64,000 bases of DNA from a virus (Duplodnaviria > Heunggongvirae > Uroviricota > Caudoviricetes). Below are positions 7,041-61,878 of the stretch, piece by piece; position 1 is the stretch's first letter, and each line of letters starts with the position of its first letter. The position numbers and the translations under genes are program-made. The notes beneath the pieces were generated by a model. That model saw only the letters and a list, made by a program, of their open reading frames with translations. It was not told the origin of the DNA and did not search any database. Location of the stretch: positions 1 to 64,000 of IMG/VR virus record IMGVR_UViG_3300003973_000001; one strand, given 5' to 3'.

Positions 7041-7071
7041 TGACATATATATATGGATGAAGGAGGATACT

Positions 7072-8166
7072 ATGAACGTCCCAGTCAAAGGAAACGAAAA
7101 GATTACGCAGTTATTAAACGAATGGTACATTGAAATTCGTGCCAGACGAATTGGTCAAGCTCATAGATTGAAAGAAGAGATTGATAAAAAGATTGATAGT
7201 ATAGAAAAAGACCAAACTCTACTATTGTATTACTCTCTCTTAGACTTTCGATACCAGTACATTTTAGACAATCTAGGAGTCTCTGTTAACAGCTTTGATA
7301 AGGTTGAAGAGTTTGAGATTCCAACGAACAACTTTTTAACTTATTACTACCACTTTTTTAAGGCTATTCATGCTTCTGGTATTGGTAACTACATGATAGC
7401 AAAAGAACACTTTGACAAAGCTGAATCTCTTCTTGAATTAGTTCCAGATGAGATTGAAAAAGCTGAGTTCTACTACAAATTAGGCGCTTTCCACTATGAC
7501 ATCTACGAATCACTTAACTCAGTTAAATATACTTCAAAGGCAAAGGAAATCTTTGAGCAACATGAAAATTACGAGCGAAACATAGGTTTCTGCGAGAATC
7601 TTCTTGGAACTGCTTGTACAAAGCTAAGAGAATGGGCTTTGTCAGAAGAGCATCTTATTAAGGCTATGGATATTTTCAGTAAGCATGGAGAAGAAAAATA
7701 TGTTCTAATGGTTAGACATAACTTAGGATATATGTATTCTAGTCAGAACTTATCTCCACTAGCAATTAGATATTTATCAGAGGTGACAAACCACAATCCT
7801 AGACATCACAAAGCTTTATTCTTACAAGCTAGAGAGCATTACAAATTAGATGAGCTTGATATCGCAAAAGATTTGGCTGATAGAGGATATAGTATCTGTC
7901 TTGAGTTGGGGAATATAGAGTATAAGCACCTTTTTGCAATTCTGAAATGTCTTATCTCGAATGTGTCTAGTGATGAATTGGAGAAGGTTACAATTGAAGG
8001 AATATCTTACTTTGAAGGCGAATCATTATATGAGTATATAGAAGAGAGTCAAGAGTATATGGCTGTTAAGTTCTATGAAGAAGGCAACCATACTAAATCT
8101 AGTGAATACTTCTATCTAGCTTCAAAAACGAGACAAAAAATTAAGGAAAGGGAGTCTTTAAAATGA
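7072..8166 (+). CDS. rap: Rap-family (RNPP) TPR quorum-sensing regulator/phosphatase
   Basis: About 365 aa. N-terminus ...KITQLLNEWYIEIRARRIGQAHRLKEEIDK...LLLYYSLLDFRYQYIL resembles Bacillus Rap N-termini. TPR-like repeats throughout. AAGGAGG RBS before ATG 7072. Confidence 0.8.
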   Translation: MNVPVKGNEKITQLLNEWYIEIRARRIGQAHRLKEEIDKKIDSIEKDQTLLLYYSLLDFRYQYILDNLGVSVNSFDKVEEFEIPTNNFLTYYYHFFKAIHASGIGNYMIAKEHFDKAESLLELVPDEIEKAEFYYKLGAFHYDIYESLNSVKYTSKAKEIFEQHENYERNIGFCENLLGTACTKLREWALSEEHLIKAMDIFSKHGEEKYVLMVRHNLGYMYSSQNLSPLAIRYLSEVTNHNPRHHKALFLQAREHYKLDELDIAKDLADRGYSICLELGNIEYKHLFAILKCLISNVSSDELEKVTIEGISYFEGESLYEYIEESQEYMAVKFYEEGNHTKSSEYFYLASKTRQKIKERESLK

Positions 8167-36335: not shown

Positions 36336-37094
36336 TCATTCACCGATGATTTTGTAAGTAGCCATATTCTTGTCTTTATCTGGGAACAAGTCAAATGTTA
36401 CTTCAAGCTTTGTAGGCTCTGTAGCAGACATTGTGATTGTAAAGTTAGATTGTGGACGAGCGTTTGGATACTCAATTTGTACGAACTCATCAGTTCCAGT
36501 TTCTTTTTCACGCATTAAAGCATCAGCAACAATGCGGTAAGCTTTAGGGAACTTATCTGCTGAGATAGAGATAGTACGAGCTTGAGCGTCTTTTACTAAG
36601 TAGTAAATAGCGTAAGCGTCACCTACAACTGCATCTGTAGCGAAAGTGATGTCAGAACCAGTGATAGTGAACTGACCTGCTGTTGGAGAAGCAGTAACCT
36701 TGTTTAAAGGCTCATCGATATGCTCGATTTGGTCTCCACCAACTTTGATAATTGTTACAGAATCAGCTACTGGAGCGCCTGCTAATGTAACTTTCTTAGT
36801 AGAAGGAATACGCACAACTTCACGTTTAGCGATGTTAGTTTCACCCTTAACAATTTCTGAACCTGCTACCATAGCTAACCATTGTAGTTCGAATACTTCC
36901 ATTTCAACTTTTAACGTACCTTGACGGTCAGCGTCCCAAGCGATAGAACGTACTCCTTTTGCGTTTGCGAATACACGCTCTGCTTGCCATTCGTTAGTAG
37001 CAACGTTAGCATAGTCAGAGAATACTGCAGGTTTTCCTGTTGCTAATTCAAAAAGACTTAAATTAGCGCAATCTTTAATACCGTAAATAGCCAC
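36336..37094 (-). CDS. major tail (tube) protein
   Basis: GTG start with AGAGGTG RBS. 252 aa, beta-rich. Position between the head-tail genes and the tail. An open in-frame extension follows its TGA stop (see findings). Confidence 0.65.
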   Translation of the reverse strand: MAIYGIKDCANLSLFELATGKPAVFSDYANVATNEWQAERVFANAKGVRSIAWDADRQGTLKVEMEVFELQWLAMVAGSEIVKGETNIAKREVVRIPSTKKVTLAGAPVADSVTIIKVGGDQIEHIDEPLNKVTASPTAGQFTITGSDITFATDAVVGDAYAIYYLVKDAQARTISISADKFPKAYRIVADALMREKETGTDEFVQIEYPNARPQSNFTITMSATEPTKLEVTFDLFPDKDKNMATYKIIGE

Positions 37095-48660: not shown

Positions 48661-48682
48661 CAACATAATATTTAGTTGTCAA

Positions 48683-48753
48683 CAGGGGTTGTAGGAATCG
48701 AACCCACACTGGAGGTTTTGGAGACCTCTGTTCTACCGTTAAACTAAACCCCT
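48683..48753 (-). tRNA. tRNA-Trp (anticodon CCA)
   Basis: Hand-folded cloverleaf. Acceptor AGGGGTT/AACCCCT, anticodon loop CTCCAAA, T-loop GGTTCGATTCC. CCA not encoded. Confidence 0.75.
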
Positions 48754-48757
48754 AAGA

Positions 48758-48834
48758 TGGCATCCCATACAGGATTCGAACCTGCGAATGCTCGATAGAA
48801 AGTCGAGTGTGTTAGCCAATTTCACCAATGGGAC
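48758..48834 (-). tRNA. tRNA-Glu (anticodon TTC), CCA encoded
   Basis: Cloverleaf with anticodon stem CTCGA/TCGAG and loop CTTTCTA. Position 37 is U, which is unusual. Confidence 0.6.
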
Positions 48835-48965
48835 ATAAAGCACAAGGGTTGTTTACGTTTTTTGTTTTGGACACCCAAGAAACATAAAACTTTCTATAAT
48901 TAGTGACGAATCAAGGCATTGCCTTTGCGTTTTTTTGAATAGAAAGAAACGTATTAAGTCCATAA

Positions 48966-49039
48966 TGCCGACTGTAGGAATCGAACCCACGACCTGTTGC
49001 TTACAAGGCAACCGCTCTAACCTGCTGAGCTAAGTCGGC
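48966..49039 (-). tRNA. tRNA-Thr (anticodon TGT)
   Basis: Acceptor GCCGACT/AGTCGGC. Anticodon stem-loop GTTGC CTTGTAA GCAAC. Confidence 0.75.
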
Positions 49040-49094
49040 AAAACTGAGGACTAGCCTCAGAAATCATAGTAAGGAGGGCTTACAAATGAATAAA

Positions 49095-49166
49095 AGGGAC
49101 ATGAGGGAATCGAACCCTCGTCATCTGGTTGGAAGCCAGAGATAATAGCCTCTATACGAATGCCCC
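49095..49166 (-). tRNA. tRNA-Gly (anticodon TCC)
   Basis: Anticodon stem-loop TCTGG CTTCCAA CCAGA. T-loop GGTTCGATTCC. Confidence 0.7.
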
Positions 49167-49167
49167 A

Positions 49168-49244
49168 TGGAGGAGAGAGTGAGATTCAAACTCACGAATA
49201 ATAGGGTTGCAACCTATCGCGTTAAGCCACTTCGCCATCTCTCC
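49168..49244 (-). tRNA. tRNA-Cys (anticodon GCA), CCA encoded
   Basis: Acceptor GGAGAGA/TCTCTCC. Anticodon stem-loop ATAGG TTGCAAC CCTAT. Confidence 0.7.
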
Positions 49245-49247
49245 ATA

Positions 49248-49334
49248 TGGTGGGAAAGGTAGGATTCGAACCTACGAAACTTGTAAGGTAACAGATTTAC
49301 AGTCTGCCTGCTTTAACCCCTTGCATACTCGCCC
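49248..49334 (-). tRNA. tRNA-Tyr (anticodon GTA), long variable arm, CCA encoded
   Basis: Anticodon loop CTGTAAA. 87 nt, class II. Confidence 0.7.
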
Positions 49335-49342
49335 AAATAAAA

Positions 49343-49372
49343 TAGCGCCCATATTTCAGAGCGCTGTTATGT
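49343..49372 (-). terminator. hairpin terminator after 49374..49637, immediately upstream of tRNA-Tyr
   Basis: AGCGC-(12 nt)-GCGCT followed by ATTTTATTT. Confidence 0.45.
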
Positions 49373-49373
49373 T

Positions 49374-49637
49374 TTAATCTAATTCTACAAATTTATTAAT
49401 CTTGGCTTTAAATCGAGCATTTTGCTCTTTGCCTGCTTTTGCACTATTTACAGAAGATTGAAGTTTATCAATTTCGGCTTGCTTCTTGGCGATTTCGCCT
49501 TGGGCATCCTTAATAATAACGTCAAATTCAGCATCTGATTTATCTACTGATGCAATCGCATCTGCAAAAACCGTTTGTGCATTTTTAAAAGTATTTTCTG
49601 CTTTCGCAATCTTTTGTTCATGATTCATCTTTAGCAT
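49374..49637 (-). CDS. hypothetical coiled-coil protein embedded in the tRNA island
   Basis: ORF with a downstream hairpin terminator (49343-49372). Confidence 0.5.
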   Translation of the reverse strand: MLKMNHEQKIAKAENTFKNAQTVFADAIASVDKSDAEFDVIIKDAQGEIAKKQAEIDKLQSSVNSAKAGKEQNARFKAKINKFVELD

Positions 49638-49660
49638 AACTCTCTCATTCTCCCTTGTTT

Positions 49661-49735
49661 GCTAATTTAATGGTACAGGTGGCAGGATTTGAACCTGCGT
49701 GACCTCCGCCCCAAACGGAGTGACTGACCTCTAGC
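49661..49735 (-). tRNA. tRNA-Pro (anticodon TGG), CCA encoded
   Basis: Anticodon stem-loop CTCCG TTTGGGG CGGAG. Acceptor has two G-U pairs. Confidence 0.6.
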
Positions 49736-49851
49736 CTACACCCATATAATAAAAGCTACCGTTATTTTAAGCTTCTATAGTCCTCTTAATAAGAGTCCAG
49801 AAGTGTGCTTTCATGAGAACCGTAGCGAAACTCAGTGTGTGTGAAAAATAT

Positions 49852-49938
49852 AAGTAAGGAAAGGAGAATACAGGATTCGAACCTGTGGGAGCATTCAGTC
49901 TCCACTTCTTTAGCAAAGAAGCACAATAAGCCACTCTG
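49852..49938 (-). tRNA. tRNA-Ser (anticodon GCT), class II
   Basis: Acceptor GGAGAAT/ATTCTCC. Anticodon stem-loop CTTCT TTGCTAA AGAAG. Long variable arm. Confidence 0.7.
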
Positions 49939-50017
49939 ACAATTCTCCACGTTGGTACTCGTTTTATTCGGAACACGAGTATACATTCCACTCATCGATG
50001 ACAATGCTAGGTGAGCA

Positions 50018-50091
50018 ATCGCATAAGCTTCGGAGGAAGGGGTCGAACCTCCACGTTCTTGGGTCAAAGCCAAGTGACTTTACCAATTTGT
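50018..50091 (-). tRNA. tRNA-Gln (anticodon TTG)
   Basis: Acceptor TTCGGAG/CTCCGAA. Anticodon stem-loop CTTGG CTTTGAC CCAAG. Confidence 0.65.
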
Positions 50092-50097
50092 CTACTC

Positions 50098-50187
50098 CGA
50101 AATAATGTGGCGGAGAGTGAGGGACTTGAACCCCCATCGGCTTTCACACCTACGCTAGTTTTCAAGACTAGTCTCTTACCAATTAGA
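50098..50187 (-). tRNA. tRNA-Ser (anticodon TGA), class II, CCA encoded
   Basis: Acceptor GGAGAGT/ACTCTCC. Anticodon stem-loop CTAGT CTTGAAA ACTAG. Confidence 0.7.
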
Positions 50188-50192
50188 GTAAC

Positions 50193-50267
50193 TCTCCACA
50201 TTTGGCGAGGATAACGAGATTCGAACTCGTGCTACATGGTAGACAGCCATGTGTGTTGACCACTACA
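50193..50267 (-). tRNA. tRNA-Asp (anticodon GTC), CCA encoded
   Basis: Acceptor GGGGATA/TATCCTC. Anticodon stem-loop CATGG CTGTCTA CCATG (U37 again). Confidence 0.65.
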
Positions 50268-50374
50268 CTATATCCCCAAAGCTGTTCTAGCCACCACAGC
50301 TAGAACAGGAGGTAGGAGGTTTTAAAATGAACCAAGATTTAGGTGTTTATAGATTGGATTTAACCAATGCCTAA

Positions 50375-50455
50375 ACATATTAAGAGCCGAGTGCAGGAAT
50401 CGAACCTGCGACCAAAAGTCTGTTACTGAGCGCTCCTTATCGCTTTACCACTAAG
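50375..50455 (-). pseudogene. tRNA-like element (81 nt) lacking a canonical anticodon arm
   Basis: Perfect acceptor GCCGAGT/ACTCGGC, D-arm GCTT/AAGC and T-arm GCAGG-TTCGATT-CCTGC. The 31 nt between them contain a GAGCGCTC palindrome and no 5-7-5 anticodon hairpin. Confidence 0.4.
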
Positions 50456-50521
50456 CTAACTCGGCATAATGTGGAGCAGGAAGTGAGGGACGACCTCATA
50501 GACAATCGTTAATTGCAACCT

Positions 50522-50618
50522 GCATATGGAGTTCTGTAGGTGGGAGTCGAACCCACATGACAAATACTTGACCCTTTCTTTCCCATTTGGGATTACTCGA
50601 ACCTTTCAATATCGCTGA
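50522..50618 (-). ncRNA. oversized tRNA-like element (about 97-100 nt)
   Basis: Acceptor-type terminal pairing GTTCTGT(G)/(C)ACAGAAC and perfect T-arm GTGGG-TTCGACT-CCCAC (the selC-type T-loop). The internal region is too long for a standard tRNA and I could not fold it by eye. Confidence 0.35.
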
Positions 50619-50624
50619 CCTTCA

Positions 50625-50701
50625 CAGAACATAATGGCGTGTCTAGATGGACTTGAACCAACGACCCTCCGCTTAACAGGCGGATGCTCTAACCAACTGA
50701 G
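50625..50701 (-). tRNA. tRNA-Asn (anticodon GTT), CCA encoded
   Basis: D-arm GCTCAGTTGGTTAGAGC. Anticodon stem-loop TCCGC CTGTTAA GCGGA. Confidence 0.7.
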
Positions 50702-50921
50702 CTACAGACACAAATTTGAGGATAGTACCGTTCCTATCCTCAATAACATATATAGTAGGAGGAAAATACATGTCGAGAAAAACAAGCAGGTTGTAACTGG
50801 ATTTGCACCAGTCATCATCCATCTAGGACAACCATGAAAAGAAGCCACGCCAATCAGCATGACTCCTTGGGTATGTTTTGGGGAGTAGCTATCGCATTTC
50901 CCCAGTTATGTTTGTTTTAAA

Positions 50922-51191
50922 TTAGAATTTACGTAATGATTTTGCTAATTTAGCAGATGCTTTACGGTGAGCAGGAACAGTGATTGCTTCGCCAGTTTGT
51001 GGATTACGACCAGTGCCTTCAGCAACTTCTTTTGATACGAATGAAGCTAAACCTTTAAGTTCTACATCTTCTCCGCGAGTTACAGCGCCAACAATTACTT
51101 CTTTAAAAGCATCGAAATGTGCCTTCGCGTCTTTCTTAGTTCCACCTGTAATTTCTGCCATTGCGTTTACTACTTCTGTTGTTTTCATCAT
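50922..51191 (-). CDS. HU/IHF-family histone-like DNA-binding protein (SPO1 TF1-like)
   Basis: MMKTTEVVNAMAEITGGTKKDAKAHFDAFKEVI...GRNPQTGEAITVPA matches the HU fold signature (GRNPQTGE). Start set at ATG 51189-91 after an AAAGGGAGAT RBS. Confidence 0.8.
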   Translation of the reverse strand: MMKTTEVVNAMAEITGGTKKDAKAHFDAFKEVIVGAVTRGEDVELKGLASFVSKEVAEGTGRNPQTGEAITVPAHRKASAKLAKSLRKF

Positions 51192-51275
51192 AATTTGATA
51201 TCTCCCTTTCTCTCTCATTCCATTATGAGATTTAATAAAATATTTGTTTTATTAGTTTTGTAATAATTTTGTTTG

Positions 51276-51346
51276 AGCCGAAGGTGGGAATCGAACCCAC
51301 TCTACCACCTTGCGATGATAAGCTTTCCATATACTTCTCTTTCGGC
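51276..51346 (-). pseudogene. tRNA-like element (71 nt) with a degenerate anticodon arm
   Basis: Acceptor GCCGAAA/CTTCGGC and T-arm GTGGG-TTCGATT-CCCAC are intact. No convincing D or anticodon stems. Confidence 0.35.
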
Positions 51347-51525: not shown

Positions 51526-52584
51526 TTATTTATTTTTGATGGCGATTTTATAAAGCTCTTTAACGTAGAATTCTGCTGACTTTTTAGCGATTCGTGTAAT
51601 CGTCTCTGAAACAGTATTCTTCTTGATTCCCAGTAATTCCTCTAGTTCTTCTTGTGCATATCCCTGTCTGAATAAGTCAACAATACTTTGCTCACGAACA
51701 GTCAGAACCATTCTATCTAGCATTCTATTGTAGTCATATATAATGATTCCTAATCCATCTTCATCCATCATATCTTCTCTATTAAGCATTCTGAGAAGCT
51801 CTTTGTTATTTACAATATCAGCGAAATCAATAACATCTAACTTGTTTGCCACACCCTCATCCTTAAGTAGATTCTTAAATTCGATAGGACGCTTGATAGC
51901 TTTCTTGATAGCAATCTGATTATCTTTCGCCTCGCGAATCCAACGAGTTACATAGCCTTTGACGTTTTTGCGAATCTTTAGGAGCTTCGCACGAGCCTCT
52001 TCTTCCATTATAATAGGAAGAGATGCGTCAATTCGATTTTCAATCATCTTCACAAACGAGTCGTCTCCTGCCTTTTCGACTAAGTCTTGCAGTCTGCCAA
52101 TCTCTACTATTTCTCTAATATCCTTAGAAAGTATACTCATACCCTTGACTAGCTTCTGATTTTTATCTTCATTAGAATAGAACATATCGAATACTTCTAC
52201 TTCTGAATTGCCATCTCCACTTTCAAATGCTGAAGCTACAACGTTCTCAGACTCTTTATATTGCTTGAACTCTCTCTCACTCTTCCAAAATCGGTACTCT
52301 ACCTTTCTGTTAGTGTCGATATCTTTTGCATTAAGAAGATATGTACCTAGCATCTCTAACGTTCGGCATACAGCATCCTGCTCAGCCATCCAACCTTGTT
52401 GCGTTGGGCTTACATCGTAATATTCACCAAAGTATGCAGAGAAGAATTCATGTACATTCCCTTCTCCATCACCAATCACTTCATTTATTACCTCTAATCT
52501 ATCATGAAACTTCTCAACTGAATAATCCTGCTGTTGGAAATCCACCAATTTTTTACCTGCAATTGAACTACTGAAGTACTTCAC
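51526..52584 (-). CDS. phage-encoded sigma-70-family sigma factor
   Basis: C-terminal region-4 HTH (QSIVDLFRQGYAQEELEELLGIKKNTVSETITRIAKK). 352 aa. Confidence 0.6.
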   Translation of the reverse strand: MKYFSSSIAGKKLVDFQQQDYSVEKFHDRLEVINEVIGDGEGNVHEFFSAYFGEYYDVSPTQQGWMAEQDAVCRTLEMLGTYLLNAKDIDTNRKVEYRFWKSEREFKQYKESENVVASAFESGDGNSEVEVFDMFYSNEDKNQKLVKGMSILSKDIREIVEIGRLQDLVEKAGDDSFVKMIENRIDASLPIIMEEEARAKLLKIRKNVKGYVTRWIREAKDNQIAIKKAIKRPIEFKNLLKDEGVANKLDVIDFADIVNNKELLRMLNREDMMDEDGLGIIIYDYNRMLDRMVLTVREQSIVDLFRQGYAQEELEELLGIKKNTVSETITRIAKKSAEFYVKELYKIAIKNK

Positions 52585-55165: not shown

Positions 55166-55410
55166 GAACCAGAAATTTATTGTCAGATTGAAGGGGATTC
55201 TGCTACAATGAATACAACAAACAAATCTTGAAAAAGCAAAAACGCCCTATCCTTTGTAAGTTTGGCGACCTGCAAGGATAAAGCGTTCGAAAGATAAAAC
55301 ATAGAATTCAGTTTTTTGTTACCTCAATAATATCATACATATAATATGTATGCAAAGGAATTCTATGATTTTTTCTTCCTGCTTTTTCTATAAAAATGGG
55401 GGAATTGAAT

Positions 55411-56445
55411 ATGGCTAGACCAGATGGTTATGATGTAGAAGGTTACATCCACTTTATTAAGAAGAGAGTAGATGGGACTCATTGGGTTGGCAAAGGAGAG
55501 AGTGCTAGAGAGATGCCTAATAAAGAAGCGTATGAAGTGCCTTTTGAATCTATCGAAAACTTAGACCTTAATAGGATTGGTAATGAGATTTCTTATCTTA
55601 ATAGCAATGTCTGGAATGTAGAAAGATATATGGCTTATTTCTGGAAGCAAATAATGGATGCTGATTCTATTTTCGTTTGGAAGCATCTGTGGGAATATGC
55701 AAATGAAGCAGAGAATATTGATATGTGTTATCCGAAAATGTCTGAATTGATGCAGAGATGCGGATTATCGAGACCCACCCTAATTGACAAGATAAAGAAA
55801 CTGGAAGAGAACAACTTCCTTATTCAAATACATAGATTAAACAAGAAGTCCGATAATAAAAAAGAAGACAGCCCATTATTCAAATTAAGAAGAACTATAC
55901 CTCTGCTGTCGAAAGAACAGGTTGAAAAGCTTACTCCTTTTATGAAGAAAAAGCATGACGATTACATGAATAAGTTTGCTAGTAAATCTAGTCTAGAATG
56001 GTTCTCTGCGAGCGGTAAAGAAACTGTTGATAATCTTATAGAGACTTCTGGAGACAGAATCGTATCTAGCAAGGCAAGACAGGAAATCAAGAATCTGCTA
56101 AAGAACGAGGAAGAAGAAGGTTATATAATTGTGAACCTCCCTCCTCATATGCAGGACACATTAAAAGATTCTAATTCACTACATGAGGCTCTTATGAAGA
56201 ACGGATTTAGTAAACCGTCAGTAGAATTGCTATTTGGAGACGTAATGTCTACATATGATAGTGAGACATCTACTGCACATATTATTACCAGAAAAAGTTC
56301 TCAGAAAGAGTATTATGAGAAAAATATGGAAGATAAGTATAAAGACATGCTATTCTCATCACTAATTGAAATGTACGATTCTGTTGGAGATATAAAGTAC
56401 TTCACTACAGAACAATATATAATTACAATTCTGAAGGGCAAATAA
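55411..56445 (+). CDS. winged-helix DNA-binding protein flanked by repeat arrays (replication initiator / origin-binding candidate)
   Basis: HTH-like segment PKMSELMQRCGLSRPTLIDKIKKLEENNFL. Iterons upstream, DnaA-box/palindrome array downstream. Start moved to ATG 55411 (GGGGGA RBS). Confidence 0.55.
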   Translation: MARPDGYDVEGYIHFIKKRVDGTHWVGKGESAREMPNKEAYEVPFESIENLDLNRIGNEISYLNSNVWNVERYMAYFWKQIMDADSIFVWKHLWEYANEAENIDMCYPKMSELMQRCGLSRPTLIDKIKKLEENNFLIQIHRLNKKSDNKKEDSPLFKLRRTIPLLSKEQVEKLTPFMKKKHDDYMNKFASKSSLEWFSASGKETVDNLIETSGDRIVSSKARQEIKNLLKNEEEEGYIIVNLPPHMQDTLKDSNSLHEALMKNGFSKPSVELLFGDVMSTYDSETSTAHIITRKSSQKEYYEKNMEDKYKDMLFSSLIEMYDSVGDIKYFTTEQYIITILKGK

Positions 56446-56493
56446 GCCCTTCTTTTTTTTATCTATTTTCGTTCACATTTTAGACACATTTGG

Positions 56494-56720
56494 TTATCCG
56501 CCTAGTGTAAAGAAATTTTATACTATGATTTTCGCCTAGTATAAAGAAATTTTATACTATACCATAAAGAAATTTTATACTATAGTGTAAAGAAATTTTA
56601 CACTATAGAAACACTCACTTATCCCCAGATTCTGTGGATAACCTAGTATAAAGTTTTTTTATACTATAAAACCCTAGTGTAAAATTTCTTTATAGTCCCC
56701 CTAAAGAATCTTTACACCCT
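56494..56720. repeat. array of at least 6 palindromic 24-bp repeats (TAGTRTAAAGAAATTTTATACTAT) flanked by three DnaA-box-like 9-mers
   Basis: TTATCCGCC at 56494, TTATCCCCA at 56619, perfect TTATCCACA (complement) at 56634-56642. Each repeat is itself an inverted repeat TAGTATAAA/TTTATACTA. Confidence 0.6.
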
Positions 56721-56979
56721 ATATCTTTATGATTCTATATATCTTTTTATTATTAATTAATATAAGATTCCATAAGAATCATTAGTGTAGAATTTTCAGA
56801 AAATACAAGTCTCCAGAAATACGAATCTCGAATCGGTAGACATATAGACCCTCCAGAATACTCCTCTCACCTCCATACTGACTCACTGACACGTTCTACG
56901 AACGAAGTAATCCAAATATATCTGTAAAAATAGCCCCTCCCCTACGGAGCGCTACCTATCTTAAAATTTATTATTTTTA

Positions 56980-56998
56980 TTAAACAAAAGTATTGCAA
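56980..56998 (+). promoter_or_regulatory. 19-bp motif class A (upstream of the antirepressor)
   Basis: ttaaacaaaagtattgcaa. Confidence 0.55.
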
Positions 56999-57053
56999 AG
57001 ATATAGGGTTATGGTGTAGTATGAAAACAACAACAAAACACAGGAGGTTCTAT

Positions 57054-57818
57054 ATGGACAAATTACAAGTATTCAACAATGACGAACTCGGACAGGTTCG
57101 AACGGTTACTATCGGAGAGGAAGCTTGGTTCGTAGCGAAAGATGTTTGCGATGTCTTATCAATCGGCAATATTACAAAAACGATTTCGCGACTGGATGAA
57201 GATGAGTTTACTACTAGTAAAGTCACCGATTCTACAGGAAGAAACCAAGATACATTCGTTGTAAACGAAAGTGGTCTTTACTCTATTATTATGACTAGTC
57301 GTAAACCGCAGGCAAAAGTATTTAAGAAGTGGGTTACATCAGAAGTGTTGCCGATGATTCGCAAAACTGGCGGTTACGTAAATAACGATGAGATATTCGT
57401 TAATACATATCTGGCTCATGCGGATGAAATGACAAAGACATTATTTAAATCAACATTAGAAACGGTGCGTAAGCAAAACGAAAAGATTGCTGTACTAGAA
57501 CCGAAAGCCGAATATCACGACAATGTACTTGATAGCAAAAACTCATTTACAATCACAGAGATTGCTAATGACTTGGGAATGACAGCTCGTAAATTGAACT
57601 CCCTACTACACCAATTAGGAGTGCAGAGAAAAGTTGGGGCAACATGGGTGTTGTACGCGGAACATCAGAATAAAGGCTACATCGATACAAAGACTTATGT
57701 ATATGATGGCGGTAACGAAGGATTCCAAACAGCCATGCATACACGATGGACTCAGAAAGGTCGCAAGTTCATTATTGATTTAATGACTGAGATGGGTCTT
57801 CAAAAAACATTTTACTAA
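57054..57818 (+). CDS. antirepressor (Bro-N N-terminal domain + KilA-C/ANT C-terminal domain)
   Basis: Bro-N-like LQVFNNDELGQVRTV...WFVAKDVCDVL...ESGLYSIIM...KVFKKWVTSEVLP. C-terminal TITEIANDLGMTARKLNSLL. AGGAGG RBS before ATG 57054. Confidence 0.75.
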   Translation: MDKLQVFNNDELGQVRTVTIGEEAWFVAKDVCDVLSIGNITKTISRLDEDEFTTSKVTDSTGRNQDTFVVNESGLYSIIMTSRKPQAKVFKKWVTSEVLPMIRKTGGYVNNDEIFVNTYLAHADEMTKTLFKSTLETVRKQNEKIAVLEPKAEYHDNVLDSKNSFTITEIANDLGMTARKLNSLLHQLGVQRKVGATWVLYAEHQNKGYIDTKTYVYDGGNEGFQTAMHTRWTQKGRKFIIDLMTEMGLQKTFY

Positions 57819-57833
57819 ACAAAAGTATTGCAG
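57815..57833 (+). promoter_or_regulatory. 19-bp motif class A overlapping the antirepressor stop (upstream of the helicase)
   Basis: ctaaacaaaagtattgcag. Confidence 0.55.
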
Positions 57834-57885
57834 AAAATGTGACGATGTGTTAGTATAACATTAACGATAACTAGGAGGAATCATT

Positions 57886-59850
57886 ATGAAATTAACAACA
57901 GAACAACAATTGGCAGTAGATACTATTGACGGAAACGTTTGTACAATCGCGAGTGCAGGCTCTGGAAAAACTAGCGCCTTCACTACTCGTATTGCGAACA
58001 TGGTAAACAATCACTATATCAATCCTACATGTATTCTAGGAATCACGTTTACGAAGAAGGCATCCGAGGAAATGCAGAAGCGACTTGCCAAGCTTATTGG
58101 TAAGGAAACAGCAAAGAAGGTCGTGCTTAGTACATTCCACAGCATCGCTTACCGATTACTAAAGGTTTTAGATTCAGAGTTTGATAAATTACAAATTGCC
58201 CCAGATTGGTGGAAGATGTCGCGCCTTAACGACTTGTGTAAGCCTCGCGATGAGCGAAACCATTTAGGTATGAATCTAGGAATCAAGGCAGGCGAACTTG
58301 CCCAGTTTATTTCTTACCAGAAAGCGAATATGGTGAAGCCGACTGACAATCTCATTATCAATGAGCAAGTCGAATTTGTAGACGGAGTGTCAGAACCACT
58401 TCTCAGAGAGGCATACGCCACGTATGAGCGACTTAAAACAGAATCTAGACAAGTAGACTTCGATGACATGTTATTGCGATTCTACGAGAAACTGAGAGAC
58501 GACAGCGTATTCCGTTCTCGCATTGCTAAACAGTATCAGTACATCATGATAGACGAATACCAAGATACTTCAACTATCGTGCTTGAAATTGTTAAGCTTA
58601 TCAACTCTCGAAACGTATTCGTAGTTGGCGATTTCCGCCAATCCATCTATGCATTCATCAATGCGAATGTTGAGAATATCCTTAACTTCAAAGATGAATT
58701 TGAGAATGTTAAGCTAATTGAATTGAACAAAAATTTCCGCTCAACGCAGAATATTGTTCACCTATCAAACAAAATTATTGAAAACAGTTCGATTGAAAAA
58801 TACAAGCAATTCAAGCCATCCGAGAGTGTTGGCGAAGTTGGAGATAAAGTTAAGTTTTCTCTATACCAAGACGAAGGAAAACAGATTCTTGGAATCGCTA
58901 ATCAGATTCAAGATTTAGTAGATGGCGGTATGCCATATAAGGAGATTGCTATTCTAGTTCGCGCAAATGCGGATACAGCAATCATTGAGGAAGTACTGGC
59001 AGATAAGGATATTCCTTACGATGTATCCAAATCCCTATCCTTCTTCGACAGAAAGGAAATCTTAGATTTACTAAGCTACGGAAGACTTGTAGTAGATAGC
59101 GAAGACGACAGCAGTTTCCGCAGAATCATCAATTCACCGAATCGATATTTAGGAAAGCAGTTTGTCGAGGAACTGGAGCGATTTGCAGGTTCGCACGATA
59201 TGAACTTAATGCAGGCGCTACGCGTAACTCCTCAGAATGGTGAGTGGAAATTCAAGCGAGGAATCGATAACTTCACTAAGATTATTAGCGATTTGCACTA
59301 TCAATCTAATTCTAGTACGAATGCAGGGCGATTCCTTCGCAATGTAATTAAAGCGACTCGCTACATTGAGTTTGTGAATGAGACGACTCCTAACGCATCT
59401 TCTATTGATGAGAAATTGGAATCTATCGAAAAGCTTTGCACTATGGCTTCTAAATTCCCTAATATCAAAGCGTTCTTGGCTCACGTTTCTACCATTAAAG
59501 ACAAACAAGCGAAGTCTAAAGGTAAAGATGCGGTGCAGGTAATGACTAGCCATGCATCTAAAGGATTGGAATTTGACGCGGTATTCGTTCCGAATGCTAA
59601 TGAAGGGCTTATTCCTCACAAGATGAATCCAGACGAGGAAGAAGAGCGAAGACTGTTTTACGTATCATGTTCTCGCCCTCGTAAGCACCTATATATCAGT
59701 TGGTTCTTTTACGATGCCGAAGCCATGCTTCAAAATGAGAGTATCTTCGTACAGGAATTGCTTGGAGAAGATACGATTCTAGAAATGAAGAAAGACCTCT
59801 TCCGAGGCAAATCGGAGACCCATGTGTGGTATCCTTCAAAAACTAGCTAA
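57886..59850 (+). CDS. UvrD/PcrA-like superfamily-1 DNA helicase
   Basis: Walker A AGSGKT. Motif II DEYQD. 654 aa. Confidence 0.8.
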   Translation: MKLTTEQQLAVDTIDGNVCTIASAGSGKTSAFTTRIANMVNNHYINPTCILGITFTKKASEEMQKRLAKLIGKETAKKVVLSTFHSIAYRLLKVLDSEFDKLQIAPDWWKMSRLNDLCKPRDERNHLGMNLGIKAGELAQFISYQKANMVKPTDNLIINEQVEFVDGVSEPLLREAYATYERLKTESRQVDFDDMLLRFYEKLRDDSVFRSRIAKQYQYIMIDEYQDTSTIVLEIVKLINSRNVFVVGDFRQSIYAFINANVENILNFKDEFENVKLIELNKNFRSTQNIVHLSNKIIENSSIEKYKQFKPSESVGEVGDKVKFSLYQDEGKQILGIANQIQDLVDGGMPYKEIAILVRANADTAIIEEVLADKDIPYDVSKSLSFFDRKEILDLLSYGRLVVDSEDDSSFRRIINSPNRYLGKQFVEELERFAGSHDMNLMQALRVTPQNGEWKFKRGIDNFTKIISDLHYQSNSSTNAGRFLRNVIKATRYIEFVNETTPNASSIDEKLESIEKLCTMASKFPNIKAFLAHVSTIKDKQAKSKGKDAVQVMTSHASKGLEFDAVFVPNANEGLIPHKMNPDEEEERRLFYVSCSRPRKHLYISWFFYDAEAMLQNESIFVQELLGEDTILEMKKDLFRGKSETHVWYPSKTS

Positions 59851-59866
59851 AACAAAAGTATTGCAC
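59847..59866 (+). promoter_or_regulatory. 19-bp motif class A overlapping the helicase stop
   Basis: ctaaaacaaaagtattgcac. Confidence 0.55.
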
Positions 59867-59883
59867 AAGAAAAGGAGAATCGC

Positions 59884-60130
59884 TATGAAAATTATTCCAG
59901 TGTTAGCGCCAAGCTACCAAGAGTTCAGATATTTTGTTCAAGACAATCAATTGAAGTTTCAGCAATTTGCTTATATCACAACGGAAGATAACCTTAGAGG
60001 ATATGGCGGTATCGTCATAGTTCTACCTAATTGGAAGAGAAATGATAAGTATGACGTAAACTTCAGACGTAGGCTGATTGAAATGGAAGTATTAAAACAT
60101 ATCTTTTTATCGAGACATGTAGAAATCTAG
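59884..60130 (+). CDS. hypothetical protein
   Basis: AAGGAGA RBS then ATG 59884. The track start at 59822 lies inside the upstream gene/motif. Confidence 0.5.
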
Positions 60131-60196
60131 GGAGGTGTGGGCAATTCGCCCTCCCCTGTCCTTCAATACTTTTGCTCTATAAATCTCTATTTTTTG

Positions 60197-60247
60197 GACG
60201 AAAGTATTGCGAGGCATTTTATACAATTAAACTAAACTATTGCGAGG
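60197..60247 (+). promoter_or_regulatory. two degenerate tandem motif copies (GACGAAAGTATTGCGAGG and AAACTAAACTATTGCGAGG)
   Basis: Upstream of 60257..60520. Confidence 0.35.
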
Positions 60248-60256
60248 ACTGATAGA

Positions 60257-60520
60257 ATGGAAACGACAAAAAATATAATGATGACAGCTATATTAGTAGA
60301 TGGTAGAAATGTAGTAATACGCCCATCCCCTACTAGCAATGAAGAAATGCTATGGAGATTTACGAATGGATTTGACGATGAAGAGAATGCAGGCATTGCA
60401 TTTATCTATCAATGGAACAAAGCTAAAATCATGGGCAAGGCTAAGGTATTTAAGAATACTACAACCTGCTACATTGAAATTAAAGGCAACAATATCGTAC
60501 TTAACTTGCTAGAGGACTAG
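60257..60520 (+). CDS. hypothetical protein
   Basis: ORF. Confidence 0.5.
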   Translation: METTKNIMMTAILVDGRNVVIRPSPTSNEEMLWRFTNGFDDEENAGIAFIYQWNKAKIMGKAKVFKNTTTCYIEIKGNNIVLNLLED

Positions 60521-60711
60521 AAATAGTCTTCTTTTTTATTTTGTACCACTTTTAGACCAATAATTGGTACATAGGGTGGTCAATCTATTATTTTTTCTAT
60601 ATTTTTTTCATCTATCAAACTCTTCAGTACCAAGGCTTGGCACTGAGGGTGGTCTAATTTCTGTCTTTCGGGTATTGCAAAGTAGAGAAATGCGTGATTT
60701 AATATAGACAA
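60521..60711. repeat. repeat sites upstream of the ParM-like gene: two palindromes each followed by AGGGTGGTC(A/T)AAT
   Basis: GACCAATAATTGGTACATAGGGTGGTCAATC and ACCAAGGCTTGGCACTGAGGGTGGTCTAATTTC. Confidence 0.45.
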
Positions 60712-60738
60712 ATGGTAAATGAAGGAGAGATTGGCAAA

Positions 60739-61878
60739 ATGGTCAAGAAAACTGCGTTAAAAGTTACTATGAAATACGATAGAGTTATTGGAATCGACTT
60801 AGGTAACGGTCTTGTAAAGATTAGAAGTGTTTACAAAAGCGGTGAATTATATGAACTGACTCTTCCAAGCGCATTCGGAAAACTGATTGATGTAGGGAAC
60901 AGTGTTGGGGGAGAAGAGCTAGATTTAGATACATATAGAATTAATGGCATCGATTATGTATGGGGAGAAGATATCACTAGACTTCGAGACAAGATGAAGC
61001 CTTGCTACGGTCATCAAGGAAGATATGAATCTGAAGCATATAAGATTATGGCTCAAATCGCTATGTCTAGAGTTGTAAAGGATTTAGGAATCGATGCAAC
61101 GGAAAAGGTTTTAGTAGTAACTGGAGTTCCTTCTATTGAAACTGATACAGAGTGCGAGACTGATATAGCGAATGCTTTCTATGGAGAAAGCTCTGGATTC
61201 TTCGAAACAGTAGTAAATGGACAAGAGTACAGCTACAGATTAGCTCACGTACAGGTTACAGCACAGGCTCTGGCAACTGTAATTGGAAGATATATAGATG
61301 AGGTTGGAAGAGTATTAAATTCGGATTATGAGAAGATTAAGGTAGCTGTAGTTGATATCGGTGCAGGCACAACGGATTTAGATGCTGTATTTGAGCTTCG
61401 TAGACAATCGAACTACCATAGTATCCAACGAGGATTCAGAGATGTTTATGAGGATATCAGAACGTATATTAGAAAGTATCATCCTTCTCATGTTGTTACG
61501 GACTACGATATCTTAGAAATCATCGAAGAAGTAGGGGATATGAGGAAGAGGCAGGAACTTGAAGCTTCTATTAGCAAGAAGAAGAAAGAGGATATTCGAT
61601 ATGAATACACTCCTTCAAAGAGAAGCGCACCAGTAGATTTCACTGATGTATTCCTTAATTCATTATATGAGCTTGCAATGGATATTCAGCAGGCTATACT
61701 TGATAAGTGGAAGAATACACTTGAATTTGATGAAATATTAATCGTTGGAGGAAGCGCAGAACACTTCTCTGACATGATGTTAAAGATTGTTAAGGATGCA
61801 ATTATCCCAGAGAACAATGGAGATAGTAACGTAGAGGGTTATTACAGATTGGGCGTAAGTATCGCACTGGCAGGATAA
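60739..61878 (+). CDS. ParM/StbA-like actin-fold partition ATPase
   Basis: N-terminal phosphate-1 motif VIGIDLGNGLVKI. DIGAGTTD phosphate-2 motif. GAAGGAGAG RBS then ATG 60739. Confidence 0.7.
   Translation: MVKKTALKVTMKYDRVIGIDLGNGLVKIRSVYKSGELYELTLPSAFGKLIDVGNSVGGEELDLDTYRINGIDYVWGEDITRLRDKMKPCYGHQGRYESEAYKIMAQIAMSRVVKDLGIDATEKVLVVTGVPSIETDTECETDIANAFYGESSGFFETVVNGQEYSYRLAHVQVTAQALATVIGRYIDEVGRVLNSDYEKIKVAVVDIGAGTTDLDAVFELRRQSNYHSIQRGFRDVYEDIRTYIRKYHPSHVVTDYDILEIIEEVGDMRKRQELEASISKKKKEDIRYEYTPSKRSAPVDFTDVFLNSLYELAMDIQQAILDKWKNTLEFDEILIVGGSAEHFSDMMLKIVKDAIIPENNGDSNVEGYYRLGVSIALAG

What the first reader, a model, noticed from the sequence alone, without database searches (positions are those of the whole stretch)
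50522..50618. Oversized (about 100 nt) tRNA-like element with a selC-type T-arm
Between tRNA-Asn and the next tRNA-like gene lies a molecule with an 8-bp acceptor-type terminal helix, GTTCTGTG/(C)ACAGAAC. It has a perfect T-arm GTGGG-TTCGACT-CCCAC, the T-loop sequence used by bacterial tRNA-Sec. About 65 nt lie between these where about 40 are expected. I could not fold a standard D/anticodon structure by eye. It could be a class II tRNA with an unusual insertion, a tRNA-Sec-like or suppressor species, or a tRNA-derived regulatory RNA. This is relevant to the in-frame TGA in the major tail gene.
Basis: seen in the sequence. Interest (0 to 1): 0.55.

Follow-up and report, generated by a model that had tools for sequence, protein, structure and literature searches.

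The report
Anticodon-less tRNA-like RNA in phage
The flagged sequence is real and belongs to a conserved, apparently undescribed family of tRNA-shaped RNAs in Bacillus phages that keep the two ends of a leucine tRNA but have a swappable hairpin instead of an anticodon, so it cannot read any codon, including TGA.

Summary
On the minus strand at 50527-50630 lies a 104-nt gene with an acceptor-type helix, a perfect T-arm and an encoded UCCA tail. It sits 4 nt after tRNA-Asn inside a 13-tRNA array.

It is not tRNA-Sec, a suppressor or any canonical tRNA. ARAGORN (with introns, tmRNA mode) and Rfam (E up to 10) do not call it, and it has no D-arm or anticodon arm.

I found 25 distinct relatives in Bacillus, Viridibacillus and Peribacillus phages and phage-plasmids. 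They share this architecture:
- an acceptor helix of 7-9 bp whose outer pairs covary;
- an invariant strand AAGGUCAGC;
- a hairpin (P2) with a covarying base and an apex of 8-68 nt that differs completely between phages;
- AU, then a near-invariant T-arm GUGGG-UUCGAyU-CCCAC;
- a bulged U, then N73 and usually CC(A).

Covariation is strong (97.6% of cells paired against 79.6% in shuffles). A covariance model separates members (68-90 bits) from all ordinary tRNAs (31.5 bits or less). The 3' half is of tRNA-Leu type.

Best reading: a non-decoding tRNA-Leu-derived mimic, processed like a tRNA, carrying an exchangeable hairpin module. Its cellular function is inferred, not shown. The TGA link is unsupported.

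The parts
50527..50630 (-). Whole tRNA-like RNA gene (104 nt including the encoded U73-CCA)
   Evidence: Covariance model R1 hit of 83.1 bits, E 2e-17, the only family-level hit in the window. Exact coordinates.
50623..50630 (-). 5' strand of the acceptor helix, GUUCUGUG. The outer 5 nt covary in the family; the inner GUG is invariant.
   Evidence: Outer pairs are 100% paired, with 3-5 pair types per position.
50614..50622 (-). Junction J1/2, AAGGUCAGC. This single strand replaces the D-arm and contains the GG expected to dock on the T-loop.
   Evidence: Eight of the nine positions are invariant in 20 aligned variants. The second A is C in L031 only.
50559..50613 (-). P2 hairpin in place of the anticodon or variable arm. 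The closing G-C is invariant, the next 3 pairs covary, and the apex is clade-specific (class A, with an internal T-loop-like GGUUCGAGU).
   Evidence: The insert is 94% conserved in L003/L004, but is replaced by unrelated sequence in L015 and L052/L073, which carry an identical scaffold.
50557..50558 (-). Junction J2/3, AU (AA in three members). This is the same C-AU-T-stem junction seen after the variable arm of tRNA-Leu genes.
50540..50556 (-). T-arm GUGGG-UUCGACU-CCCAC
   Evidence: Invariant stem in 19 of 20 aligned variants, with one compensatory GCGGG/CCCGC. Across 17 phages the element has 2 distinct T-stems while the neighbouring tRNA-Asn has 8.
50531..50539 (-). 3' strand of the acceptor helix, C-U-ACAGAAC, with an invariant extra U (a bulge, or a G.U wobble plus an A/C mismatch)
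   Evidence: bulge model, G-C 20/20; RNAalifold picks G.U 20/20.
50527..50530 (-). Discriminator U73 plus encoded CCA
   Evidence: N73 is A in 14 of 15 acceptor types and U in this clade. The tail is CCA, CCU, UCA or CUU.
50635..50711 (-). tRNA-Asn(GUU) immediately upstream (4-nt spacer UUAU). It is the usual neighbour of the element.

Best explanation
The element is a non-decoding, tRNA-Leu-derived tRNA mimic encoded as one gene of the phage's tRNA operon.

Shown by sequence and comparison:
- It folds as a three-way junction: an acceptor helix ending in N73-CC(A), a canonical T-arm, and a hairpin (P2).
- The D-arm is reduced to an invariant 9-nt strand, AAGGUCAGC.
- The anticodon arm is missing, so the RNA cannot read a codon.

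Inferred from established tRNA biology:
- It is co-transcribed with the neighbouring tRNAs.
- RNase P cuts its 5' end after a conserved U(-1).
- Its 3' end is trimmed, and CCA is added where it is not encoded.
- The GG of the junction docks on the T-loop to give a tRNA-like elbow.

Inferred function (least certain): the near-invariant core is read by a host factor that recognises the body of tRNA-Leu rather than its anticodon. LeuRS is the obvious candidate. A tRNA-processing enzyme or a tRNA-targeting defence enzyme is the alternative. The RNA would then act as a mimic or decoy, or as a charged carrier outside decoding. P2 is an exchangeable, clade-specific module displayed on this scaffold.
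For: Structure:
- Covariation test on 20 variants: 97.6% of cells paired against 79.6% in shuffles. The score is 0.481 against 0.118, reached by 0 of 500 shuffles. Slid controls give 41-60%.
- RNAalifold independently returns the same junction.
- Unconstrained MFE folding gives it in 20 of 24 variants.

A discrete family:
- R1 scores members 68-90 bits and every other tRNA 31.5 bits or less. There is one copy per phage.

Selection:
- The element is 96-97% identical where coding flanks are 66-71% identical.
- The T-stem is nearly fixed while the tRNA-Asn T-stem in the same phages takes 8 forms.

Not a decoder:
- No ARAGORN or Rfam tRNA, tRNA-Sec or tmRNA call.
- The P2 apex ranges from 4-nt loops to a 76-nt insert holding a nested cloverleaf.

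tRNA-like processing context:
- It lies 0-4 nt after the preceding tRNA.
- The motif AU|G marks the 5' end.
- N73 and a CC(A) tail directly follow the helix, whatever its length.

tRNA-Leu ancestry:
- The 24-mer CATGTGGGTTCRANTCCCACCTAC otherwise hits tRNA-Leu in 27 of 33 cases.
- It shares 20 of 20 nt with the T-arm region of Bacillus phage Bc431v3 tRNA-Leu(UAG), which occupies the equivalent position there.
- The host phages' arrays contain no tRNA-Leu.

Plausibility of a LeuRS interaction:
- For a bacterial LeuRS, the key elements are A73, G18-U55, G19-C56 and the variable-arm orientation (U48). Deleting the whole anticodon stem-loop cost only 2.5-fold in affinity (PMC2377443).

Modular P2:
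- Identical scaffolds carry three unrelated inserts (window/L003/L004, L015, L052/L073).
- One insert class is shared by scaffolds with different acceptors (L019, L029, L090), with a compensatory G-C to A-U change.
Against: No expression, processing or aminoacylation data exist for any member. All functional steps are inference.

Against LeuRS specifically:
- The window's clade has U73. A73U cost 45-fold in the cited system.
- There is no D-stem, and position 8 is G rather than U.
- The acceptor helix carries an extra U. It also varies from 7 to 9 bp, whereas that study found a regular acceptor helix is required.

Other points against:
- No partner protein co-occurs. The flanks differ between SPbeta-like and phBC6A51-like phages, and no tRNA-related enzyme was found in the window ORFs scanned.
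- Three SPbeta-like relatives keep tRNA-Asn but lack the element, so it is dispensable for the phage type.
- In the window, L004 and L092 the unconstrained MFE prefers a competing fold by about 3 kcal/mol. The single-sequence z-score is only -1.09.
Confidence: 0.55

Rival explanations
1. A pure carrier or 'natural tRNA scaffold'. The tRNA-like core only supplies RNase P/RNase Z/CCA processing and stability. The biological activity would lie entirely in the exchangeable P2 module, for example as an aptamer, a decoy hairpin or an antisense loop.
For: P2 inserts are swapped between identical scaffolds, yet each class is conserved: 94% in window/L003/L004, and L019/L029/L090 share one class with a compensatory change. 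One member carries an entire cloverleaf in P2.
Against: Processing alone does not explain the near-invariance of J1/2 or the bulged U. Nor does it explain the near-fixed T-stem, when the neighbouring tRNA-Asn T-stems drift freely. Some members have almost no cargo: L018 P2 is a 7-bp stem with a 4-nt loop. No antisense target of 12 nt or more was found in the 64-kb window.
Confidence: 0.2
2. A tmRNA-like tRNA-like domain, that is, a mini-tmRNA or SmpB decoy. The topology fits: acceptor, T-arm, a single-stranded D-loop analogue containing GG, and a helix leaving the junction.
For: The only Rfam model touching the element is tmRNA. It matches the T-arm at 12.3 bits (E 0.0015) in the window. Model ends 1-374 align at 16 bits in L056 and L075.
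Against: - These scores are far below the gathering score of 47.
- The matches are essentially the 17-nt T-arm.
- ARAGORN tmRNA mode finds nothing.
- There is no tag ORF and no pseudoknots.
- G3.U70, the alanine identity pair, occurs in only one variant (L092).
- The junction sequences (CAU, CUAC) are tRNA-Leu-type rather than the GAC/CGUC type I recall from Bacillus tmRNA (own knowledge).
Confidence: 0.07
3. A decaying tRNA-Leu pseudogene with no function of its own. It would be retained by linkage to tRNA-Asn/Asp, or merely serve as an RNase P entry site for maturation of its neighbours.
For: It looks like a tRNA-Leu that has lost its D-stem 5' strand and its anticodon arm. Some relatives lack it.
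Against: - It is conserved well above the coding flanks.
- Compensatory changes appear in two helices.
- The same derived architecture recurs in at least two unrelated phage types and three host genera.
- The single-stranded junction is invariant.
Confidence: 0.07
4. One reading: a tRNA-Sec-like or suppressor tRNA that reads the in-frame TGA of a tail gene.
For: An 8-bp acceptor helix in the window clade, and a UUCGACU T-loop that E. coli selC also has (own knowledge).
Against: - No anticodon arm, no 6-bp D-stem and no UCA loop are conserved.
- Acceptor length is 7-9 bp across the family.
- There is no Rfam tRNA-Sec hit at E up to 10.
- TGA is an ordinary stop here.
Confidence: 0.02
5. An intron-containing or split tRNA-Leu gene, or a DNA-level site such as an attP core or recombination site, rather than a stable RNA.
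For: There is a variable insert at a fixed position, and the 3' half resembles a tRNA-Leu 3' half, as attP cores do.
Against: - Inserts of 16-76 nt are far too small for group I introns.
- Removing the insert never restores a D-arm plus anticodon arm.
- ARAGORN with intron search finds nothing.
- The 3' acceptor strand varies and covaries with the 5' strand, which an att core identical to a host tRNA would not do.
Confidence: 0.03

Closest known systems
Class II tRNA-Leu (bacterial and phage)
   Same: - The T-arm, the preceding C-AU and the following CUAC are shared. A 24-nt motif is otherwise found almost only in tRNA-Leu.
- The T-arm region matches Bc431v3 tRNA-Leu(UAG) at 20 of 20 nt.
- Most members have A73.
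- The GG, the encoded CCA and the position inside a tRNA array are also shared.
   Different: - No D-stem and no anticodon arm or anticodon.
- An extra U in the acceptor 3' strand, and an acceptor of 7-9 bp.
- The window clade has U73.
- It is not detected by the Rfam tRNA model or by ARAGORN. Conversely, tRNA-Leu genes score 30 bits or less with the family model.
tRNA-like domain of tmRNA, including the reduced jakobid mitochondrial tmRNAs (own knowledge)
   Same: The topology is the same: acceptor plus T-arm, a single-stranded D-loop analogue with GG, a helix in place of the anticodon arm, and no anticodon. The T-arm matches the Rfam tmRNA consensus.
   Different: There is no tag reading frame and no pseudoknots. 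G3.U70 is absent, except in one variant. The score is 12-16 bits against a gathering score of 47.
Stable 'species 1/2' RNAs (rnaC/rnaD) of the phage T4 tRNA gene cluster (own knowledge; not tested here)
   Same: They are non-tRNA small RNAs encoded inside a phage tRNA cluster and matured by the tRNA-processing machinery. Their function is still unknown.
   Different: There is no sequence relationship that I could test, and they come from different hosts. The present family has a defined tRNA-Leu-like core and a modular hairpin.
Bacillus cereus pseudo-tRNA tRNA-Other (PMC3399842; also cited in PMC5389517)
   Same: It is a tRNA-derived RNA in the same host group that does not work in translation. 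It sets a precedent for recruiting tRNA relics to other roles.
   Different: tRNA-Other keeps a Trp anticodon, acts on a T-box and is part of a longer transcript. Element 1 has no anticodon. The neighbouring 82-nt gene at 50384-50465 is the better candidate relative of tRNA-Other.
tRNA-shaped processing or scaffold elements: mascRNA/menRNA (PMC11693755), gammaherpesvirus tRNA-miRNA units, engineered tRNA scaffolds (own knowledge)
   Same: A tRNA-like fold is used for RNase P and CCA processing and for stability, without decoding. In engineered scaffolds the cargo replaces the anticodon arm.
   Different: Those are eukaryotic, viral-eukaryotic or artificial. None has this conserved junction sequence or tRNA-Leu-type core.
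allo-tRNAs and 8/4 or 9/3 tRNAs (PMC5389517)
   Same: They are irregular tRNAs with longer acceptor helices, some with a bulged nucleotide. Some are phage-borne, and some are proposed to be regulatory.
   Different: allo-tRNAs keep a full cloverleaf with an anticodon and a 12-bp acceptor/T branch. Here the T-stem stays at 5 bp and the anticodon arm is gone.

Membership tests
Canonical tRNA (Rfam RF00005) | Cloverleaf with a D-arm and a 5-bp anticodon stem carrying a 7-nt loop; detectable by tRNA finders | tested here: not met
   No ARAGORN call, with or without introns. No RF00005 hit at E up to 10, even in a 126-nt search. The family alignment has neither arm.
Canonical tRNA (Rfam RF00005) | Acceptor helix, T-arm with a UUCRANU loop, and a single-stranded N73-CCA end | tested here: met
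tRNA-Sec (selC) | UCA anticodon in an anticodon arm, a 6-bp D-stem with a 4-nt loop, and a long variable arm | tested here: not met
   No such arms are present in any of the variants. No Rfam tRNA-Sec hit.
tRNA-Sec (selC) | A 13-bp acceptor/T branch (8/5 in bacteria) | tested here: inconclusive
   The window clade has 8 bp (with an extra U) plus 5 bp. Across the family the acceptor is 7, 8 or 9 bp, so the length is not a fixed family trait.
tmRNA (Rfam RF00023) | tRNA-like domain plus a tag-encoding reading frame and pseudoknots; G3.U70 for alanylation | tested here: not met
   ARAGORN tmRNA mode finds nothing. Rfam matches only the T-arm, at 12-17 bits against a gathering score of 47. G3.U70 occurs in 1 of 24 variants.
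tRNA-Leu | tRNA-Leu-type T-arm and flanks | tested here: met
   Of 33 non-family hits to the 24-mer, 27 are tRNA-Leu..
tRNA-Leu | Leu anticodon, D-arm with U8-A14, and A73 | tested here: not met
   There is no anticodon or D-stem. The window has U73, whereas most other members have A73.
tRNA-Leu | Leucylation by LeuRS | not testable with these tools
   This needs an in vitro charging assay or acid-gel northern blots. The literature shows only that the anticodon arm is dispensable for one bacterial LeuRS.
The new family defined here (model R1) | GUG-AAGGUCAGC-G...C-AU-GUGGGUUCGAyUCCCAC-C-U-AC core with a covarying outer acceptor and P2 base | tested here: met
   Window hit of 83.1 bits, E 2e-17. 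Pair statistics.
B. cereus tRNA-Other pseudo-tRNA | Trp (CCA) anticodon; T-box regulation of trpS1; part of a longer transcript | not tested
Element 1 has no anticodon, so membership is unlikely.

The most novel reading that the evidence does not exclude
Bacillus phages carry a dedicated class of anticodon-less tRNA-Leu mimics that serve as natural tRNA scaffolds. An RNase P/CCA-processed L-shaped core is held fixed by a host tRNA-binding factor. On it, exchangeable RNA modules, in one case a whole nested tRNA-like cloverleaf, are displayed. The RNA would act either as a decoy for tRNA-targeting host immunity or for LeuRS, or as a codon-independent aminoacyl carrier.
Probability: 0.3. Interest if true: 0.8.

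Novelty: new variant of a known kind. Interest (0 to 1): 0.6.

Why it matters
Phage tRNA arrays are usually read as codon-usage or anti-defence supplements made only of decoders. This family shows that such arrays also hold conserved RNAs that keep the tRNA body but have discarded decoding.

Three things make it a tractable system for asking what a tRNA body does outside translation during infection:
- a clean sequence signature;
- a modular hairpin;
- culturable host strains.

It also matters for annotation. Neither tRNA finders nor Rfam nor the RefSeq annotation of three plasmid records appear to list it. The locus-tag gaps fit only the ARAGORN-callable tRNAs.

Tried and rejected
- ARAGORN with introns, relaxed thresholds, tmRNA and mitochondrial modes gave no call on the element.
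- Rfam at gathering and at E up to 10, on the window and on seven relatives, returned only tmRNA T-arm fragments and chance hits.
- Single-sequence folding was uninformative (z -1.09, and the MFE breaks the T-arm).
- The first exact-pattern scans found only two near-identical relatives plus chance hits L005/L006.
- The genome-contig scan, using a pattern from the variable insert, found only the B. gaemokensis contig plus ordinary tRNAs. In hindsight that was a poor use of the single scan.
- BLAST of the shortest member against INPHARED phages found only T-arm hits, mostly in tRNA-Leu.
- The antisense-target search of the insert against the window gave only chance-level 11-mers.
- Pfam and PHROG scans of neighbouring and non-structural ORFs for a tRNA-related partner found none.
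- Literature searches for a described equivalent found none. They did surface tRNA-Other and allo-tRNAs as the nearest precedents.
- Several 5'-motif scan hits (L076-L078, L080-L082, L084-L087, L089, L091) were GC-rich chance matches and were discarded.

Full report
**What is there**

The finding lies in a minus-strand array of 13 tRNA genes at 48682-50711 (ARAGORN; Rfam). Four nucleotides after the encoded CCA of tRNA-Asn(GUU), the minus strand reads:

GTTCTGTG AAGGTCAGC [55-nt hairpin region] AT GTGGG-TTCGACT-CCCAC C-T-ACAGAAC T CCA

This is 104 nt, at window 50630->50527. The stated interval (50522-50618) omits the 5' strand.

No tool recognises it as a tRNA. ARAGORN fails with default settings, introns, relaxed thresholds, and tmRNA or mitochondrial modes. 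Rfam gives no tRNA, tRNA-Sec or full tmRNA match at E up to 10. Folding the single sequence is uninformative (z = -1.09).

**Who carries it**

The window is part of an SPbeta-like phage. Its terminase is 47-51% identical to those of SPbeta, phi3T and Lysinibacillus phage LC76P1. It has plasmid-type maintenance genes: an Alp7A-like actin and an HTH_36 initiator.

Two IMG/VR contigs are syntenic with the window. One equals a 120-kb contig of Bacillus gaemokensis KCTC 13318. Their coding DNA is only 66-71% identical to the window, yet the element is 96-97% identical. That alone argues for purifying selection on the element.

**Finding the family**

Using the HU-like gene 300 nt upstream (50922-51218, Pfam PF00216), I pulled related contigs from public assemblies. 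Their elements kept the two ends of the window's element but had entirely different middles.

That gave a usable signature. Scans of viral contigs, metagenomes and plasmids followed. In all I obtained 24 distinct variants, plus one more from Peribacillus asahii.

Hosts named by the records are:
- B. gaemokensis, B. wiedmannii, B. cereus, B. altitudinis and B. licheniformis;
- Viridibacillus arvi;
- Peribacillus asahii.

The carriers are 115-145-kb SPbeta-like elements and about 60-kb phBC6A51-type phage-plasmids. None of the 50,697 INPHARED phage records holds it.

**Architecture**

All members share these features:
- G1, except in the Peribacillus member, preceded by U(-1).
- An acceptor helix whose outer 4-6 pairs differ between phages, over an invariant inner G-C, U-A, G-C with one extra U on the 3' strand.
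- The single strand AAGGUCAGC, with one A-to-C change among the 20 aligned variants.
- A hairpin, P2, closed by an invariant G-C and then covarying pairs.
- AU (AA in three members).
- The T-arm GUGGG-UUCGAyU-CCCAC, with a single compensatory GCGGG/CCCGC.
- N73, which is A in 14 of 15 acceptor types and U in the window's clade.
- A tail of CCA, CCU, UCA or CUU.

**Covariation and discreteness**

On the 20-sequence alignment A2, 97.6% of cells form standard pairs, against 79.6% in shuffles and 41-60% when partners are slid. The covariation score is 0.481 against 0.118, reached by 0 of 500 shuffles. Nine of 17 pairs show double changes. RNAalifold, given no structure, returns the same three helices. 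Unconstrained folding reproduces the junction in 20 of 24 variants.

A covariance model (R1) scores members at 68-90 bits. Every other sequence in 380 kb of phage loci scores 31.5 bits or less, including all ordinary tRNAs and tRNA-Leu genes. There is one copy per phage. The family is therefore discrete, not a tail of the tRNA distribution.

**It cannot decode**

The place of the anticodon arm is taken by P2, and P2 has no conserved loop. In L018 it is a 7-bp stem with a 4-nt loop, for a 67-nt RNA in all. In the window it is a 55-nt irregular hairpin with an internal T-loop-like GGUUCGAGU. In L088 it contains a complete nested cloverleaf, which ARAGORN calls tRNA-Leu(caa). There is no room for a D-arm.

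This refutes the tRNA-Sec or suppressor reading. The TGA link also fails:
- The only TGA followed by an open in-frame stretch (stop at 36336, then 55 codons) ends a 252-aa virion protein.
- That protein aligns to phrog_2729 over profile positions 4-246 of 252.
- TGA terminates 7 of 41 long ORFs.

**Ancestry**

The 3' 24-mer CATGTGGGTTCRANTCCCACCTAC was found 37 times in metagenome contigs. Four hits were family members. Of the other 33, 27 were class II tRNA-Leu genes, four were tRNA-Pro and two were uncalled.

In Bacillus phage Bc431v3 the equivalent position in a partly homologous array holds tRNA-Leu(UAG), with 20 of 20 identical nucleotides across the T-arm region. BLAST of a short member hits T-arms annotated mostly as tRNA-Leu.

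The 5' part reads like a tRNA-Leu D-region that has lost its 5' stem strand. Compare GUG-AA-GG-UCAG-CG with GUG-GCGG-AAuu-GG-CAGA-CGC. That last alignment is my inference, not a test. None of the phage arrays that contain the element encodes a tRNA-Leu.

**Constraint beyond pairing**

Across 17 phages the element has two T-stem sequences, while the neighbouring tRNA-Asn has eight. Together with the near-invariant junction and the extra U, this suggests that something reads the core by sequence or by exact shape.

P2 behaves differently. Phages with an identical scaffold carry three unrelated inserts (window/L003/L004; L015/L016/L028; L052/L073). Yet each insert class is conserved, at 94% within the window's class. 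One class is shared by scaffolds with different acceptor stems (L019, L029, L090) and shows a compensatory G-C to A-U change. So P2 looks like an exchangeable but functional module.

**Mechanism, with levels of support**

Shown:
- a selected, structured RNA gene with tRNA ends and no anticodon;
- membership of a discrete family;
- a position as a unit of tRNA operons, 0-4 nt after the preceding tRNA and mostly between tRNA-Asn and tRNA-Asp.

Inferred from established tRNA biology:
- 5' cleavage by RNase P (U-1/G+1, acceptor/T-arm stack, RCCA);
- 3' trimming or RNase Z cleavage, plus CCA addition;
- a GG/T-loop elbow.

Inferred with low confidence: the core mimics the body of tRNA-Leu for a host factor. 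LeuRS is the natural candidate because it ignores the anticodon. In Aquifex LeuRS the determinants are A73, U8-A14, G18-U55, G19-C56 and the variable-arm/U48 orientation, and deleting the anticodon stem-loop costs only 2.5-fold in affinity (PMC2377443).

Against that reading, the window clade has U73, the D-stem and U8 are missing, and the acceptor helix is irregular and of variable length. A decoy for another tRNA-binding enzyme, including tRNA-targeting defence nucleases of the kind now being described (abstracts), fits equally well. So does a pure scaffold role for P2.

**Rivals and what is known**

A dead pseudogene, a mini-tmRNA, an intron-bearing tRNA and a DNA site are each disfavoured by specific tests, listed under rival explanations.

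I found no description of this family in Rfam or in the searchable literature. The nearest precedents are:
- the T4 tRNA-cluster stable RNAs (own knowledge);
- the tmRNA tRNA-like domain;
- the B. cereus pseudo-tRNA tRNA-Other (PMC3399842);
- allo-tRNAs (PMC5389517);
- tRNA-shaped processing elements such as mascRNA.

I therefore rate it a new variant of a known kind, the non-decoding tRNA-like RNA. It is of moderate-to-good interest, chiefly because the family is well defined, modular and experimentally accessible.

Noticed in passing
window 50472-50523 (minus strand): A second uncalled mini tRNA-like gene of 52 nt lies 3 nt after element 1. It has an 8-bp terminal helix (two U.U mismatches here), a 4-bp/5-nt-loop hairpin, a 5-bp/5-nt-loop hairpin, and then U-CCA. 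It is conserved in Bacillus phages Bc431v3 and Bcp1 and in the B. wiedmannii plasmid, with compensatory changes in all three helices.
   Followed up: partly
window 50384-50465 (minus strand): An 82-nt irregular tRNA. ARAGORN calls it Ala(agc) with the anticodon at position 32, or Cys(aca) with a 10-nt intron. Rfam tRNA scores it 52.4 bits. Its homologue in phage Bc431v3 is annotated 'tRNA-Trp, possible pseudogene' (CCA anticodon). It may be related to the B. cereus pseudo-tRNA tRNA-Other.
   Followed up: partly
window 50789-50833 (minus strand): A 45-nt acceptor-plus-T-arm minihelix (GGUUGUC...ACUGG-UGCAAAU-CCAGU-UACAACC) lies upstream of tRNA-Asn. It is conserved with small changes in L015 and L016. 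At the same position other relatives have a longer, roughly 72-nt tRNA-like sequence.
   Followed up: partly
window 51273-51346 (minus strand), upstream of the HU-like gene: Another tRNA-like sequence that ARAGORN does not call. It has the T-arm GUGGGUUCGAUUCCCAC. R1 gives a weak hit of 19.7 bits, and Rfam tmRNA matches the T-arm at 51284-51300. The region is conserved in L003 and L004.
   Followed up: no
L088 140-266: A family member whose P2 hairpin contains a complete nested cloverleaf. ARAGORN calls it tRNA-Leu(caa), although the loop lacks U33. RNase P processing of the inner unit would split the outer RNA into two halves.
   Followed up: partly
window 50307-50320 and 50327-50374: The tRNA strand carries ACCUCCUACCUCCU, an anti-Shine-Dalgarno-like motif, followed by a hairpin just before tRNA-Asp. 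On the opposite strand this reads as a double SD 7 nt before an ATG that opens a 15-codon ORF. The motif recurs before tRNA-Asp in relatives, but the peptides are not conserved.
   Followed up: partly
window 50716-50743 (minus strand): A 10-bp hairpin lies immediately upstream of tRNA-Asn. Relatives have a hairpin at the same place with a different, still complementary sequence.
   Followed up: no
L052, L073, L093, L019: ARAGORN reports 'tRNA-???' genes with 4-base or 2-base anticodons (agcg, tact, ataa, tt) in the tRNA arrays of relatives. This suggests further irregular tRNAs in these phages.
   Followed up: no
L094, L095, L096: SPbeta-like relatives from Virgibacillus and from metagenomes keep tRNA-Asn next to the HU-like gene but lack the element. 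In L094, tRNA-Asn and tRNA-Asp are only 5 nt apart.
   Followed up: yes
window 55396-61878 and 7057-8166: The phage has plasmid-style maintenance and signalling genes: an HTH_36 replication initiator, a UvrD-type helicase, an Alp7A-like actin, a Bro-N/KilAC antirepressor and a Rap-like TPR protein. A sigma-factor-like gene (51526-52584) lies just upstream of the HU gene.
   Followed up: partly
A 252-aa virion structural protein ends at TGA (36336), with 55 open codons after it. The protein matches its PHROG profile end to end, so this looks like an ordinary stop.
   Followed up: yes
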